Shown here one piece after another: positions 12,465 through 35,185 of a DNA stretch of 64,000 nucleotides. Below the pieces are notes generated by a model. That model did no database searches and had not been told where the DNA came from. It worked only from the letters and a program-made list of their open reading frames with translations. Source of the stretch: a virus. The translations under genes and the position numbers were made by a program. The stretch lies in the IMG/VR virus record IMGVR_UViG_3300046007_007028, positions 1-64,000 of that record, one strand, 5' to 3'. Numbering within the stretch: the stretch's first letter is position 1; each line of letters opens with the position of its first letter.

Positions 12465-12573
12465 AAAATGAAAGACCCCGAACTCAAACGCTGCTACACA
12501 TTCAAATCCGAGGTCAGTTGTTGGTTGTTAAACCAATATTTTTTTGCTGGTAGCAGACAGCAATACAAAGGTA
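12465..12573 (-). promoter_or_regulatory. Promoter plus kissing-loop leader (copy 1)
   Basis: TACCTTTG; UUGCUG[UCUGCUAC]CAGCAA; 17-bp GU-rich hairpin 12515-12474 with loop UGUAGCAG. Confidence 0.7.
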
Positions 12574-25698: not shown

Positions 25699-26085
25699 AT
25701 GAAAACAGTAAAACAATGGCTTGAGCAGCTTCCGGACGGATACCGGGAGAGGGCGTTGGAGAATTTGGTCCAAGACGGGAGGGAGAAAAACTCTGTCGGG
25801 CTTATATATTTGGCAATCCACAGGGCTTTTACATGGCAGGAAACAAAAGAGGGTTTTAGTTTTTGGGCCGCGGTGTACTCCCACTATGCAGCCAAAAGCG
25901 TGCCTCTCCCGCAACTTGCCCCACTCCCACCGCCACCATCAAAACCCCTCCCCTACCGCCTTATCCTTGCCATGTTGGGGGTACTGGTTGCGGCTGCCGG
26001 CTTCTTTATGGACCTCCAGTATTTCGTCGGCTTCGGGACCGCCATCGTATCATTTGCCATATTTTTTAAAATTGAGAAAGCATGA
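25699..26085 (+). CDS. Hypothetical membrane protein
   Basis: KTVKQWLEQLPDGYRERAL domain, Pro linker, two C-terminal TM segments. Confidence 0.7.
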   Translation: MKTVKQWLEQLPDGYRERALENLVQDGREKNSVGLIYLAIHRAFTWQETKEGFSFWAAVYSHYAAKSVPLPQLAPLPPPPSKPLPYRLILAMLGVLVAAAGFFMDLQYFVGFGTAIVSFAIFFKIEKA

Positions 26086-27057: not shown

Positions 27058-27924
27058 ATGCAATTACAGAAAGCAACCCGGAAGAAGACGAAGCTACGGC
27101 TAAATCTTTCGGCCCCTTCAGGTGCGGGAAAGACCTATTCAGCCCTTCTTATGGCCAAAGGATTGGTCGGGGATTGGGACAAAATTGCCGTTATTGATAC
27201 CGAAAACGGTTCGGCATCTCTGTACGAACACCTCGGCCCGTTCAACGTCATTGACCTTGCCCCACCATTTTCCCCGGAGCGATACATACAAGCCATTGAC
27301 GCTTGTGTTGCCGCTGGGATGGAGTGCATTATCATTGACTCCAGTTCACACGAATGGAGCGGCCCCGGAGGGTGTCTGGAGTCAAACGACGCACTTGCCG
27401 CTGCAAAGTTTAAAGGAAACAATTGGGCCGCCTGGAACGAAACGACGCCCCGCCACGAACGCTTTGTGAGCAAGGTGCTTCACTGCGACGCTCACGTAAT
27501 TACCTGCACCCGTTCCAAGATGGAGACCGTTCAGGAAGGGGGAAAGATAAAGAAGTTGGGTATGAAGGACATCCAAAGGGAAAACTGGGAGTACGAATTA
27601 ACCGTATCGCTATCAATTGATAGAGATACCCACATGGCGGTCCCAAGCAAGGACCGTACGCAACTGTTTGAGGGCACAGCTCCATTTGTCATCACCGAAG
27701 AAACCGGTAAACTGATAAAGGCATGGTGCGAAACCGGCGTGGTGGACCCGGTCAATGAGTTCCGGGACAAGTTGCGCAAGGTTATTGACAACCCGCTTAT
27801 CACTCCAGAGGAACGGGCTAAGTGGGAGAACTGGATGCCGTCTGGCACGGCAGAAACCCTTCAGGGACAGATTGCAAAAGCACAGGAAATGATTAACCAA
27901 CGCACCAATGAACCTCAACCGTGA
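27058..27924 (+). CDS. AAA_24/Sak4-like ATPase (recombination)
   Basis: APSGAGKTYSAL, IAVIDTENGSA, IIIDSSSHEW, EYELT. Confidence 0.88.
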   Translation: MQLQKATRKKTKLRLNLSAPSGAGKTYSALLMAKGLVGDWDKIAVIDTENGSASLYEHLGPFNVIDLAPPFSPERYIQAIDACVAAGMECIIIDSSSHEWSGPGGCLESNDALAAAKFKGNNWAAWNETTPRHERFVSKVLHCDAHVITCTRSKMETVQEGGKIKKLGMKDIQRENWEYELTVSLSIDRDTHMAVPSKDRTQLFEGTAPFVITEETGKLIKAWCETGVVDPVNEFRDKLRKVIDNPLITPEERAKWENWMPSGTAETLQGQIAKAQEMINQRTNEPQP

Positions 27925-28096
27925 ACTGACCTGCATCATTTCCGACGCCCGGTTGTTTAGCGACGCTGACCGCACCCGATTCAGGGAGCGGACGGCTCGC
28001 AGGCCGGTGGAACAGGTTGTTGCCGTGGCCCGTCGGGTGGAAGCGGCAAGGTGGAAGAAGTGGAAAGAAGAGCATCGTAATTTTTTGATAGGATGA
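27908..28096 (+). CDS. Hypothetical protein
   Basis: Coupled on both sides. Confidence 0.55.
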   Translation: MNLNRELTCIISDARLFSDADRTRFRERTARRPVEQVVAVARRVEAARWKKWKEEHRNFLIG

Positions 28097-28605
28097 ATTT
28101 ATTCAACATTACACACGAACGCAAGCTGCTTATGCAGCAGTTGGAAGCCGCAGACGGGGAGGCGTCAGAGGAGCTTCTGGAAGAACTTGCAATCAATCGG
28201 TCAAACTTTGAAGAAAAGGCCGAAGGATACGCCTACATGATGCGCAAACTCGAAACGGATGTGAATGCCGTCAAAAGCGAAATCGACCGCCTGACGGCCC
28301 TAAAAACGGCAAAAGAAAGGGCATACGAACGCCTTGAAAAGACTTTGCTTGATGCCGTTGTTCAATACGGGGAGAAAGGCAAGGACGACGTGGCAAGGGC
28401 CGAGGTTGGGACTTTCCGGTTTTCAACCCGTCGCAATCCCGCTTCGGTTGAGATTTTGGATGAAGAGGCTATTCCAGAGGAGTACAAGGTGAGCAAGACG
28501 ACGGTGAGCGTAAGCAAGACGACGATCAAAAACGCCTTGTCTTTGGGGCAGTCCGTTCCGGGGGCGCAGATGAAGGAGGGGGACTTGAGGCTGGTTGTGA
28601 AGTAA
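28093..28605 (+). CDS. Siphovirus Gp157-family protein
   Basis: EEKAEGYA...EIDRL...RRNPASVEILDEEAIPEEY...IKNAL..G..VPGA. Confidence 0.9.
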   Translation: MNLFNITHERKLLMQQLEAADGEASEELLEELAINRSNFEEKAEGYAYMMRKLETDVNAVKSEIDRLTALKTAKERAYERLEKTLLDAVVQYGEKGKDDVARAEVGTFRFSTRRNPASVEILDEEAIPEEYKVSKTTVSVSKTTIKNALSLGQSVPGAQMKEGDLRLVVK

Positions 28606-28616
28606 AAAAATGTTTT

Positions 28617-28765
28617 TACATTTGCAGCGGATAGAAAACCAAGCTGAACCGGTTTATTGCCCAACCAACCCCTCATAGGGCAAAAGTGTGCATCCTAATT
28701 ACCGGTTCAGCCATAGTTTAGCAATAAGCTATGCGGTTTTTGGGGTGCACACTTTTGTTTTGCCC
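28617..28765 (+). promoter_or_regulatory. Promoter plus kissing-loop leader (copy 2)
   Basis: TACATTTG; AAACC[AAGCUGAACC]GGUUU; long stem 28681-28757 presenting GUUCAGC beside a GCAA-tetraloop hairpin. Confidence 0.7.
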
Positions 28766-29090
28766 CTCTTTGGTTTTGACTTTCTACCATAGTCCAAAGA
28801 CAAAAAGAAAGGCCGTTTGATCCGGCTGGGAGTAATCCTGAAAACTCGACCACACACAGGCTTGCGATTAAGTCCTGCTCTGACCCAAGGTGTCAACAGG
28901 CAACTGGTGCCGGAAGGTAGTAAGTCTGATGAACGAAACACCCAAAGCTGTTAAAGCTGAAGTTAATAAGAATTGGGACAGGACGGAAGTGGTGGTTTGG
29001 GTTGAAGTGTTAATAGGAGACACTTAAATCTTGGTACATGGGGAACCTATACACCAGGATAAAAACCTTCCTATGATTAAAAACCAATAA
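28766..29090 (+). ncRNA. Candidate large structured non-coding RNA
   Basis: No convincing ORF; consecutive hairpins including GGGA-GUAA-UCCU. Confidence 0.35.
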
Positions 29091-29093
29091 TTT

Positions 29094-29414
29094 ATGCTAC
29101 TCCACACAATCGAACGAGGCAAGTATGCGAGGGTGGTCGCTGAAAGGGTGGTTTACATTGAAGCATCCGGTCAGGACCAAACAACCCTGCACATGACAGA
29201 CAAACGGATGATTGCGGTACGTGGTGCATTGGGATTGATTGCGGCCAAATTCCCGACCTTTTCTCAGGCTGCCAAATATTGCTATGTGAATCCGGACCAT
29301 GTTTATTCCGTTCGGGTAATTGGTATGAGGGTTCATATTAAGTTTGGGAATGGGGAGAAGCTGGAGGTGGGCCGGAGCAAAAAATTCTACAAACAATTTT
29401 TGTCGTCCCTTTGA
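29094..29414 (+). CDS. Stand-alone LytTR DNA-binding domain protein
   Basis: VVYIEASG...LH...R.AL...F...YVNPDHV...NGEKLEVGR matches the LytTR layout. Confidence 0.8.
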   Translation: MLLHTIERGKYARVVAERVVYIEASGQDQTTLHMTDKRMIAVRGALGLIAAKFPTFSQAAKYCYVNPDHVYSVRVIGMRVHIKFGNGEKLEVGRSKKFYKQFLSSL

Positions 29415-29468
29415 GGGGTTTGGTCGAAGAATTTATATCTGATTGAGAGGGTGAAATATTTTTGAAAC

Positions 29469-29729
29469 ATGGAAGCAACAAAACCAACAAAACAACAAAT
29501 CAACGCTGCGGCACTGGAGGTGATTGCTCGTATTTCTGAAGGTAAGGAACGTGAGAGGCTGGAGAGGGAGGTAGGGGAGGTTCTAAATAAACCAAGAAAC
29601 ATAATTGGAAATGCTTTATGGAATAACGATAATCTAGCATTTTCTTTTTGGCCTACTTGGATAGACTGTTGTAATTCAAATGGATACCTTGTCGCCACCT
29701 TCAAACTCAAATCCCGCAAAACCGTTTAA
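29469..29729 (+). CDS. Hypothetical protein
   Basis: TATTTTTG promoter just upstream. Confidence 0.65.
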   Translation: MEATKPTKQQINAAALEVIARISEGKERERLEREVGEVLNKPRNIIGNALWNNDNLAFSFWPTWIDCCNSNGYLVATFKLKSRKTV

Positions 29730-33387: not shown

Positions 33388-33515
33388 TATATTTGCATGG
33401 CTTCCAATAGGAAGCAACCAACGGACTAGGTTGGACAAGAAACTGGGAGAAATCCCATAACACGGCCCTGAATTGGCGTAGCTAGTCCCTGCGTTGATTT
33501 GGGGCTTTTGTTTTT
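33388..33515 (+). promoter_or_regulatory. Promoter plus kissing-loop leader (copy 3)
   Basis: TATATTTG; CCAAC[GGACUAG]GUUGG; GAAA-tetraloop hairpin; 18-bp GU-rich hairpin with loop CUAGUCC; U tract. Confidence 0.75.
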
Positions 33516-33518
33516 AAG

Positions 33519-34505: not shown

Positions 34506-34575
34506 TAGTCCACAAAATAATGGGTTTGGTCGAAAACTGCAAAATGGATTTATTGGGAAGGGGTAGGTTTGGGGA

Positions 34576-34764
34576 ATGGAAAATACTTATACTCCAATCA
34601 TTGTAGACCTTGTTTACACCAATTTTGAATCCAATCTTTTAAAGCAAGATGGGAAGAAAATAGATATGGGGAAATTATCTATCACCGCAATTTTGGCAAC
34701 CCAAAAGGACGTTGAGGGAATAATCAATCAACTGGAAATCATCAAACATTGTTTTAAGAAGTAA
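34576..34764 (+). CDS. Hypothetical protein
   Basis: TAGGTTTG promoter upstream. Confidence 0.6.
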   Translation: MENTYTPIIVDLVYTNFESNLLKQDGKKIDMGKLSITAILATQKDVEGIINQLEIIKHCFKK

Positions 34765-34934
34765 TGAAACAAATCCTTCTAACCCTAATCGACCGCCTAT
34801 TCCCCGCCAAGTGCAAGCATGAGTGGGAGGATAAATATATGGTTTCGGTAAAAAATGAGATTGGTCAAGTATATAAGACAAGAGTAACTTTGGCTTGCAA
34901 ACATTGTGGTGAGATTAAACAGATGAGTTTATGA
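34764..34934 (+). CDS. Small Zn-ribbon protein, 56 aa (not in ORF track)
   Basis: Manual translation: CKHEW...CKHCG; coupled on both sides. Confidence 0.65.
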   Translation: MKQILLTLIDRLFPAKCKHEWEDKYMVSVKNEIGQVYKTRVTLACKHCGEIKQMSL

Positions 34935-35185
34935 CAAAAATCAAATTTATTGCTGTCCCAATCCGTATCGGGAAAGCAGCAGCCCTAAATCAATGGCTTG
35001 ACGGCTTTTGTGAAATCCACGACATTGATAGAGACAAAGTCAATGTCGTAATGGCTGGGAAATCTGCTGTGCTAAGAATTACGATTGCCAGTTTAGAGCA
35101 TATCAAACTTTTGTCGGACGGGTTGAAGGATGTGGTGGAGAAGGCGCCTACCTCAACCCCGCAAAATACTCAACCGACCTCCTGA
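34931..35185 (+). CDS. Hypothetical protein
   Basis: Coupled; converges on the lipoprotein gene. Confidence 0.55.
   Translation: MTKIKFIAVPIRIGKAAALNQWLDGFCEIHDIDRDKVNVVMAGKSAVLRITIASLEHIKLLSDGLKDVVEKAPTSTPQNTQPTS

What the first reader, a model, noticed from the sequence alone, without database searches (positions are those of the whole stretch)
28617..28765. Third kissing-loop leader, heading a long non-coding region
Seen: TACATTTG promoter; AAACC[AAGCUGAACC]GGUUU; a ~24-bp stem (28681-28757) whose multiloop exposes (G)GUUCAGC (28704-28711), complementary to GCUGAACC (28643-28650), next to a CAUAGUUUA-GCAA-UAAGCUAUG GNRA hairpin; U tract after the stem. No ORF follows for ~330 nt, so here the element may gate an RNA or the LytTR operon.
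Basis: partly seen in the sequence, partly recalled or inferred. Interest (0 to 1): 0.7.

Follow-up and report, generated by a model that had tools for sequence, protein, structure and literature searches.

The report
Phage leader RNA with terminator switch
A lake-water phage places a folded RNA leader between a promoter-like site and a regulator gene; the start of this leader can pair with the upper part of its own transcription-stop hairpin, so it probably sets how much transcription runs on, and it is an elaborate copy of an uncatalogued leader design seen in related phages.

Summary
A TACATTTG promoter-like motif (28617-24) is followed by a weak hairpin and then a long terminator-like hairpin (28681-28757) with a U-rich tail. 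The complementarity is stronger than reported. It is 11 exact bases (28643-53 with 28701-11), and a second 7-base box (28654-60) matches the apical GCAA loop region (28721-27). In 20,000 dinucleotide shuffles, 1 gave 11 or more bases and 4 gave both sites.

New here: before the terminator's 3' strand is made, the RNA is predicted to fold into a three-way junction built on that 11-bp helix (-39.6 kcal/mol, z -5.45). This fold and the complete terminator (-52.0 against -44.1) exclude each other. My reading is a promoter-proximal attenuator, not just a loop-loop kiss.

The 329 nt behind it show no coding signal and only modest structure. In lake contigs the gap shows 0 differences over 488 nt, while flanking third codon positions differ by 4-16%. 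Recombination could explain this as well as selection.

I found no diverged homologue, so there is no covariation evidence for this copy. I have no RNA data. This scan has reported the same leader design before, on other phage DNA and twice in this genome.

The parts
28617..28624 (+). Promoter-like -7 motif TACATTTG (Bacteroidota type TAnnTTTG), 12 nt after the stop codon of the upstream gene
   Evidence: In the whole record the motif lies in intergenic DNA 18 of 54 times, although intergenic DNA is 7,780 of 72,439 nt (odds ratio 4.2, p 7.6e-6, crude gene calls). Use as a promoter is inferred, not shown.
28636..28655 (+). Hairpin 1: stem 28636-40/28651-55, 10-nt loop 28641-50 that presents box A
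   Evidence: -2.8 kcal/mol alone. Present in the MFE of nascent RNA ending at 28700 and of the full leader.
28643..28653 (+). Box A, 11 nt exactly complementary to 28701-28711
   Evidence: I6. Duplex -12.3 kcal/mol for 8 bp and -19.7 for 11 bp. A match of 11 nt or more arose in 1 of 20,000 shuffles.
28654..28660 (+). Box B, 7 nt complementary to the apical-loop region 28721-28727
   Evidence: I7. Duplex -5.2 kcal/mol. Both boxes matched together in 4 of 20,000 shuffles.
28634..28741 (+). Alternative three-way junction. P1 28634-40/28735-41. P2 28643-53/28701-11 plus 28654-56/28696-98. P3 28712-20/28725-33.
   Evidence: MFE of every nascent transcript ending between 28712 and 28748. 28628-28741 folds at -39.6 kcal/mol, z -5.45, with 0 of 200 shuffles as good.
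28681..28757 (+). Terminator-like hairpin: lower stem 28681-98/28740-57, 4-bp helix 28701-04/28734-37, 7-nt bulge 28705-11, upper hairpin 28712-33 with GCAA loop
   Evidence: (I1). The 100-nt window 28650-28749 has z -3.28 on the + strand and +0.07 on the - strand.
28753..28777 (+). U-rich tail (CUUUUGUUUUG, then CUCUUUGGUUUUG)
   Evidence: Direct repeat D1.
28766..29093 (+). Untranslated stretch between the terminator and the LytTR start codon
   Evidence: No HNH remnant. No homologue of the longest small frame. No Pfam or PHROG family for 6 stop-to-stop frames. Fold z -2.75 on + against -0.12 on -. No TAnnTTTG motif inside it.
29094..29414 (+). First gene downstream: 106-aa LytTR DNA-binding domain protein
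   Evidence: Pfam PF04397, E 2.1e-6, 28.3 bits against a cut-off of 22.6.
28093..28605 (+). Upstream gene: Sipho_Gp157 / Gam-like protein
   Evidence: Pfam PF05565, E 8.9e-31. PHROG 253, E 2.3e-34.

Best explanation
This is a promoter-proximal transcription attenuator of a lake-water phage of Bacteroidota type. It is built on the same plan as the leaders of the phage's two HNH genes.

Proposed sequence of events:
1. RNA starts a few bases after TACATTTG.
2. Box A is first displayed in a weak hairpin.
3. When the 5' half of the upper terminator emerges, box A captures it in an 11-14 bp helix. Together with a 7-bp closing helix and the GCAA hairpin, this makes a three-way junction.
4. The junction occupies the top of the terminator stem and encloses its 5' strand.
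5. Only when the last ~10 nt of the 3' strand are out does the terminator become the more stable fold.

The fraction of polymerases that stop at about 28760 or read on into the 329-nt untranslated stretch and the LytTR operon would then depend on the race between the two folds.

Shown: the sequences, the complementarities and their rarity by chance, and both predicted folds.

Inferred: the start site, termination itself, the direction of the effect, and any factor that tips the balance.
For: - Complementarity far beyond chance and unique in the genome.
- Two mutually exclusive folds, each very unlikely for shuffled sequence. Full leader: z -5.15. Truncated RNA forming the junction: z -5.45.
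- Order of folding. Hairpin 1 is the MFE at 28700. The junction is the MFE for ends from 28712 to 28748. The terminator is the MFE from 28757. At full length the terminator is -52.0 and the forced box-A helix -44.1 kcal/mol.
- The other two leaders also show the box-loop helix as a transient MFE state.
- G.U pairs make the terminator strand-specific: z -3.28 on + and +0.07 on -.
- The promoter motif is enriched in intergenic DNA. The only intergenic motifs more than 100 nt from a same-strand gene start that truly head non-coding DNA are the three leaders.
- Enrichment of box-loop complements at promoter-proximal terminator-like hairpins: 5 of 25 against 0.89 expected. Further examples head a helicase (L015), an HNH gene (L020) and an AAA_24 gene (L010).
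- No TAnnTTTG lies between the terminator and the LytTR start, so LytTR expression would depend on read-through.
Against: - No RNA data: no listed run holding this DNA is on record as RNA.
- No diverged homologue of this copy was found, so there is no covariation test for it.
- Hairpin 1 is weak (-2.8 kcal/mol).
- Unlike the other family members I examined, the next start codon is 329 nt from the terminator, not 8-26 nt.
- The junction helices are mostly Watson-Crick, so the opposite strand of 28628-28741 also folds well (z -3.25).
- The family examples were picked by the complementarity itself. One of the 5 hits (25902-26001) looks like noise.
- MFE folding ignores pseudoknots and kinetics.
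- The hairpin could also simply end the upstream operon, because no other terminator lies between the Gp157 stop codon and this hairpin.
Confidence: 0.5

Rival explanations
1. A free-standing small RNA gene. Promoter plus terminator make an RNA of about 130 nt that acts in trans, for example on co-infecting relatives or on host RNA. The internal pairing only gives it a compact, nuclease-resistant shape. The 329 nt behind it would be unrelated.
For: A promoter-like motif and a strong terminator-like hairpin bracket about 135 nt. No gene starts behind the terminator. The core of box A is a palindrome (AACCGGUU), so two molecules could pair.
Against: The same architecture elsewhere sits directly in front of start codons, which fits a cis-acting leader. 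No complementary target beyond chance-length matches (13 nt or less) was found in the phage genome. No RNA data.
Confidence: 0.15
2. An ordinary intrinsic terminator that closes the upstream recombination operon (AAA_24 ... Gp157). The promoter-like motif would be a chance match, and the upstream complementarity would have no regulatory role.
For: The hairpin begins 76 nt after the Gp157 stop codon, with no other terminator between them. In the one syntenic relative, L029, a plain terminator-like hairpin with a 3-nt loop precedes the LytTR homologue. TAnnTTTG is not more frequent in the window than in shuffles: 52 against 48.8.
Against: An 11-nt complement plus a second 7-nt complement arose in 1 and 4 of 20,000 shuffles respectively. 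The alternative fold has z -5.45. The motif is enriched in intergenic DNA. The same three-part arrangement recurs.
Confidence: 0.15
3. The leader is only the 5' domain of one long (~470 nt) non-coding RNA or structured 5' UTR. Its body (28766-29093) would carry the real function, and the unit may move between phages as a cassette.
For: The + strand of 28606-29100 folds at z -4.20, against -0.74 for the - strand. 28770-29093 alone gives z -2.75 against -0.12. Lake contigs show 0 differences in 28592-29098, while one contig has 11 differences in 28302-28591 and 22 in 29099-29372. Under uniform spread P is 4e-7. In L029 the slot between Gp157 and LytTR holds unrelated DNA, a 68-aa ORF.
Against: Local 100-nt windows between 28750 and 28999 have z near 0. 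There is no Rfam match and no homologue anywhere searched. The invariant block rests on one independent haplotype: X10 and X23 share their differences, and X5 is identical over 1.2 kb including coding DNA. Recombination therefore explains it equally well.
Confidence: 0.12
4. A DNA-level element, such as an operator pair for a DNA-binding protein, an origin, or a recombination site. It would be read as double-stranded or single-stranded DNA rather than as RNA.
For: The repeat arms contain the palindrome ACCGGT. The block lies next to recombination genes and a DNA-binding regulator. The block is invariant in lake contigs. Direct repeats GTTAATAAGA/GTTAATAGGA and 2 x TAAAAACC lie further downstream.
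Against: The long hairpin relies on G.U pairs and folds far better on the + strand. There are no iteron arrays. The same plan occurs with unrelated box sequences at other genes, which fits pairing within one RNA and not one protein's site.
Confidence: 0.06

Closest known systems
Kissing-loop terminator leaders of Bacteroidota phages (uncatalogued; reported repeatedly by this scan, including leaders at 12573-12469(-) and 33388-33518(+) of this window)
   Same: TAnnTTTG motif, a 5' box shown in a small hairpin, a long terminator-like hairpin with a U tail, and 7 nt or more of exact complement between the box and an unpaired part of that hairpin. Each copy has a different box sequence.
   Different: Here the partner is a bulge rather than the apical loop. 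The complement is 11-14 bp and runs into stems. A second box matches the apical loop. A 7-bp closing helix completes a stable alternative three-way junction. The next start codon is 329 nt away, not 8-26 nt.
Guanidine-IV riboswitch (mepA motif)
   Same: The loop of a 5' hairpin pairs with the loop of a second hairpin whose extension is an intrinsic terminator. That pairing opposes completion of the terminator stem and favours read-through (passages of PMC11611296).
   Different: There is no Rfam match in the window at gathering scores, and no guanidine family among the 7 weak matches. Box sequences differ between copies, so there is no conserved ligand pocket. The context is a phage rather than an efflux gene.
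Classical terminator/antiterminator attenuators (trp, pyr, bgl/sac RAT-type leaders; recalled, not from a call)
   Same: Two exclusive folds, in which the one transcribed first takes bases the terminator needs.
   Different: No effector (leader peptide, protein, tRNA or metabolite) is identified. There is no sequence likeness to any such family in Rfam. The lower 15 bp of the terminator stem are not sequestered and could close as a pseudoknot.
Phage P4 CI RNA with seqA/seqC, and P1/P7 c4 RNA (recalled, not from a call; also named as closest known in the scan notes)
   Same: Short boxes in a phage leader pair with complementary sites near a promoter and decide premature termination or expression.
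   Different: Those RNAs act on separate sites and partly in trans as immunity factors. Here both partners lie within about 70 nt of one transcript. There was no match to the C4 family.

Membership tests
Kissing-loop terminator leader of Bacteroidota phages (scan's uncatalogued family) | TAnnTTTG promoter motif directly upstream | tested here: met
   TACATTTG at 28617-24. The motif is enriched in intergenic DNA.
Kissing-loop terminator leader of Bacteroidota phages (scan's uncatalogued family) | Terminator-like hairpin followed by a U-rich tail | tested here: met
   28681-28757 plus UUUUGUUUUG. Termination itself was not tested.
Kissing-loop terminator leader of Bacteroidota phages (scan's uncatalogued family) | 7 nt or more of exact complement between an upstream box and an unpaired stretch of the terminator hairpin | tested here: met
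   8 nt against the bulge plus one flanking base, 11 nt in all. The partner is a bulge, not the apical loop.
Kissing-loop terminator leader of Bacteroidota phages (scan's uncatalogued family) | Box presented in the loop of a stable 5' hairpin | tested here: inconclusive
   The hairpin is only -2.8 kcal/mol. It is in the MFE when folding starts at 28628 but not when folding starts at 28625 or 28606.
Kissing-loop terminator leader of Bacteroidota phages (scan's uncatalogued family) | Start codon of the controlled gene within about 8-26 nt of the U tail | tested here: not met
   The next gene starts at 29094, 329 nt after 28765. The other copies have distances of 8-26 nt.
Kissing-loop terminator leader of Bacteroidota phages (scan's uncatalogued family) | Box-loop pairing kept by compensatory change among homologues of the same locus | not testable with these tools
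   No diverged homologue was found. Lake contigs are identical over the leader.
Guanidine-IV riboswitch (mepA motif) | Match to the curated covariance model with its conserved loop nucleotides | tested here: not met
   0 matches at gathering score in the window. It is not among the 7 matches at E up to 10 in 28400-29300.
Intrinsic (factor-independent) terminator | G+C-containing stem directly followed by a U-rich tract | tested here: met
   Stem GUGUGCAUCC/GGGGUGCACAC, then UUUUGUUUUG. The consensus scan did not list it, because that scan allows loops of 3-8 nt only.
Intrinsic (factor-independent) terminator | Transcripts end in the U tract | not testable with these tools
   No RNA run holds this DNA.
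C4 / P4 CI-type phage antisense RNA | Match to the Rfam model | tested here: not met
   No match.

The most novel reading that the evidence does not exclude
The element is a self-timed RNA switch. A three-way-junction antiterminator forms first and is then either overtaken by the terminator or locked by a phage or host factor. This would decide when the phage's LytTR regulator operon is switched on. The whole invariant 488-nt block (promoter, switch and 329-nt RNA) would be a mobile regulatory cassette occupying a variable slot between Gp157 and LytTR. That would show that the scan's kissing-loop leaders are a general class of kinetic antiterminators of Bacteroidota phages.
Probability: 0.2. 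Interest if true: 0.75.

Novelty: new variant of a known kind. Interest (0 to 1): 0.55.

Why it matters
Little is known about how phages of Bacteroidota time their early genes. A recurring, uncatalogued leader RNA that couples a promoter to a terminator through programmable box-loop pairing would be a new regulatory device of these abundant phages.

This copy is useful because its pairing is long enough to predict two clear-cut, testable states. Compensatory mutations in an ordinary in vitro transcription assay can therefore settle the direction of the effect. It also extends the design from selfish nuclease genes to a regulator operon.

Tried and rejected
- **Rfam.** 0 matches in the whole window at gathering scores. 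28400-29300 at E up to 10 gave 7 matches, all far below gathering and judged chance (SNORA40, CpoB thermometer, CRISPR-DR35, CopA and others).
- **tRNA/tmRNA.** None.
- **Decayed HNH gene in 28766-29093.** tblastn with both HNH proteins of the window gave a best E of 0.21 over 12 residues. Rejected.
- **Small protein.** The 45-aa frame 28890-29024 has no homologue. Six stop-to-stop frames have no Pfam family and only PHROG E-values of 0.18-0.19.
- **Paralogue of the block elsewhere in the genome.** Only 11-13-nt chance matches.
- **Homologue searches that found nothing useful.**
  - blastn against phage records.
  - LytTR protein in viral and metagenome contigs and in phage records.
  - Gp157 protein: only a 34% relative, L002, from a G+C-rich phage, and two Firmicutes phages.
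  - 24 loci found through the AAA_24 protein hold neither the block nor Gp157 nor LytTR.
  - Exact pattern scans. The two metagenome hits, L027 and L028, are chance matches with G+C of 0.62 and 0.77.
  - Gp157 alignment in GTDB genomes.
  - LytTR alignment in viral contigs returned only the record of L029 again.
  - L030 and L031 are uninformative.
- **RNA evidence.** No RNA holder is listed.
- **Laid contigs.** The 37-nt pieces at 28558-28594 with 7 differences and unlike flanks, in X5, X10, X21 and X23, belong to other organisms. X21 covered nothing else.
- **Descriptor scan.** The loose version is noise: 123 hits against 100.8 expected. Only the promoter-proximal subset is enriched.
- **Promoter motif at 34942(-).** The 437-nt gap behind it is not a leader. 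It holds small + strand ORFs and folds at z +0.38.
- **L019(-) 2080-1950.** It has an 8-nt box-loop complement, but it lies in DNA that looks like a tRNA gene region on the other strand. Not counted.
- **Papers.** Searches (listings only) returned no description of such a phage leader. From PMC11611296 I read passages only. Supplements are closed and I did not consult them; I do not expect them to bear on this.

Full report
**Setting.** The window is the first 64 kb of a 72,439-nt IMG/VR virus record (CheckV completeness 64). Public runs that hold it are lake-water metagenomes. Genes from about 18.9 to 34 kb run on the + strand. The finding lies in a 488-nt gap (28606-29093) between a Sipho_Gp157/Gam-like gene (28093-28605) and a 106-aa LytTR-domain gene (29094-29414). 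An AAA_24 gene lies further upstream.

**Observation.**
- The long hairpin is real. The inverted repeat 28681-28704/28734-28757 is 83% complementary. The leader 28625-28765 folds at -53.7 kcal/mol with z -5.15, and 0 of 200 shuffles did as well.
- GUUCAGC lies in a 7-nt bulge, not a multiloop.
- The complementarity was understated. It is 11 exact bases (28643-53 with 28701-11).
- A directly adjoining second box (28654-60) complements the apical GCAA loop region (28721-27).
- In 20,000 dinucleotide shuffles of the 56 upstream bases, 8 nt or more arose 393 times, 11 nt or more once, and both sites together 4 times.
- The 8-bp and 11-bp duplexes are worth -12.3 and -19.7 kcal/mol. The hairpin said to present box A is worth only -2.8.

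**Family context.**
- The two other leaders of this window, 12573-12469(-) before a NUMOD4-HNH gene and 33388-33518(+) before an HNH gene, fold as described. Their 7-nt loop complements are exact.
- I scanned this record plus 24 related loci found through the AAA_24 protein, 268,633 nt on both strands.
- Among 25 compact terminator-like hairpins with a TAnnTTTG motif 20-120 nt upstream, 5 had 7 nt or more of complement between an unpaired stretch and the RNA upstream. Shuffles predicted 0.89. By my own arithmetic the Poisson P is about 0.002.
- Among 396 hairpins without the motif, the count was 18 against 14.5 expected.
- Three of the five are the leaders of this window. One (25902-26001) looks like noise. 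One is L015.
- Looser scanning added L020, L004 and L010.
- These leaders head a helicase, an HNH gene and an AAA_24 gene, so the design is not tied to nucleases. That agrees with earlier notes of this scan.
- TAnnTTTG is enriched in intergenic DNA of this record: 18 of 54 motifs lie in 10.7% of the bases, p 7.6e-6, using crude gene calls.
- Most intergenic motifs lie 4-43 nt from a start codon. The ones more than 100 nt away are the three leaders and one false case.

**What is new in this copy.**
- I folded transcripts of growing length from 28628.
- Up to 28700, hairpin 1 and a UUGCCC/GGGCAA hairpin form.
- For 3' ends from 28712 to 28748, the MFE is a three-way junction:
  - P1: 28634-40/28735-41.
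  - P2: box A helix 28643-53/28701-11, extended by 28654-56/28696-98.
  - P3: the GCAA hairpin.
- The terminator becomes the MFE only at 28757.
- At full length the terminator fold is -52.0 kcal/mol and the fold with the box A helix enforced is -44.1.
- The truncated RNA 28628-28741 folds at -39.6 kcal/mol with z -5.45, and 0 of 200 shuffles did as well. This is as unusual as the terminator itself.
- The two folds compete for 28696-98, 28701-04 and 28734-41.
- Leaders 1 and 2 show the same box-loop helix as a brief MFE state before their terminators close. There it is only 7 bp.
- I therefore read the kiss as a capture helix that forms first. In this copy it has grown into a full antiterminator-like fold. 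Whether it lowers or raises termination, and whether the lower stem closes around it as a pseudoknot, cannot be decided by these tools.

**Strand.** The terminator depends on G.U pairs. The window 28650-28749 has z -3.28 on the + strand and +0.07 on the - strand. The junction helices are mostly Watson-Crick, so the opposite strand of 28628-28741 also folds well (z -3.25). This weakens strand evidence for the junction alone.

**The 329 nt behind it.**
- There is no coding signal, no promoter motif and no Rfam match.
- Structure is modest. 28770-29093 has z -2.75 on + (1 of 100 shuffles as good) against -0.12 on -.
- In 100-nt windows only 29000-29099 stands out (z -2.82). 28750-28999 is near 0.

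**Population data.**
- Contigs of three lake runs cover the gap.
  - X10 record 2 (28129-29490) has 33 differences: 11 in 28302-28591, 22 in 29099-29372, and none in between.
  - X23 carries the same differences.
  - X5 record 12 (27900-29572) has 20 differences, all at 29099 or beyond.
- Third-codon-position divergence is 4.4% in Gp157 and 15-16% in LytTR.
- P(no difference in the 488 nt) is 4e-7 for X10 under uniform spread.
- This amounts to one independent haplotype. X5's identity over 1.2 kb that includes coding DNA shows recombination blocks of this size exist. Selection on the whole block and a recent exchange of the block are both open.

**Synteny.**
- The only relative with both flanking genes is L029 (Gp157 63% identical, LytTR 44%).
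- It holds a 68-aa Cys-rich ORF and a plain terminator-like hairpin where this phage has the 488-nt block.
- The slot is therefore variable, and the block has no homologue there.

**Verdict.**
- The element belongs by architecture to the uncatalogued kissing-loop leader design of Bacteroidota phages. It fails one common feature, a start codon next to the U tail, and lacks a covariation test of its own.
- The best reading is a promoter-proximal attenuator with competing junction and terminator folds ahead of the LytTR operon (confidence 0.5).
- Rivals are a free-standing small RNA, a plain operon terminator, a long non-coding RNA, and a DNA-level site.
- I found no paper describing it in four searches. 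The nearest published analogue I read about is the guanidine-IV riboswitch (passages).

Noticed in passing
window 28592-29098: The whole intergenic block shows 0 differences in contigs from three lake runs. The flanking genes differ at 11 and 22 places in one contig, and the boundaries fall within 15 nt of the Gp157 stop codon and 5 nt of the LytTR start codon.
   Followed up: partly
window 28962-28971 and 29009-29018; 29060-29067 and 29078-29085: Direct repeats GTTAATAAGA/GTTAATAGGA (47 nt apart) and TAAAAACC x2 (18 nt apart) lie upstream of the LytTR gene. From memory, LytTR regulators bind paired direct repeats, so these could be autoregulatory sites.
   Followed up: no
window 28635-28642, 28770-28777, 29080-29087: AAAACCAA occurs at the start of the leader and again 7 nt before the LytTR start codon. 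Both copies complement UUGGUUUU just after the terminator (I9, I12, D2). An 8-nt match is within chance for this length.
   Followed up: no
window 12520-12526(-), 28663-28669(+), 33416-33422(+): All three leaders of this phage carry AACCAAC between the box and the terminator, on the leader strand. The window has 16 copies on both strands against 13.2 expected. I picked the motif after seeing it, and it is absent from the leaders in the related loci shown.
   Followed up: partly
L029 3519-3725 and 3740-3795: In the one syntenic relative, the slot between Gp157 and LytTR holds a 68-aa Trp/Cys-rich ORF ending in a CxxC motif, then a plain terminator-like hairpin 18 nt before the LytTR start codon.
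   Followed up: partly
L010 4150-4300; L015 6825-6960; L020 9410-9600; L004 270-120(-): Further promoter / box / terminator leaders with 7-9-nt box-loop complements. They head an AAA_24 gene, a helicase-like gene, an HNH gene and a short ORF cut by the contig end. In L020 the partner loop sits on a side branch inside the terminator.
   Followed up: partly
L019 1300-2200(-): About 900 nt without sizeable ORFs. The stretch holds repeated hairpin-plus-UAUUUUAAAAGGC modules and what looks like a tRNA gene on the opposite strand.
   Followed up: no
window 28647-28654: The core of box A is the palindrome AACCGGTT, so two copies of the RNA could in principle pair loop to loop.
   Followed up: no
window 34506-34950: A TAAATTTG motif on the - strand lies 437 nt from the next - strand gene, but the stretch holds three small + strand ORFs and has no fold signal (z +0.38). 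It is not a leader.
   Followed up: yes
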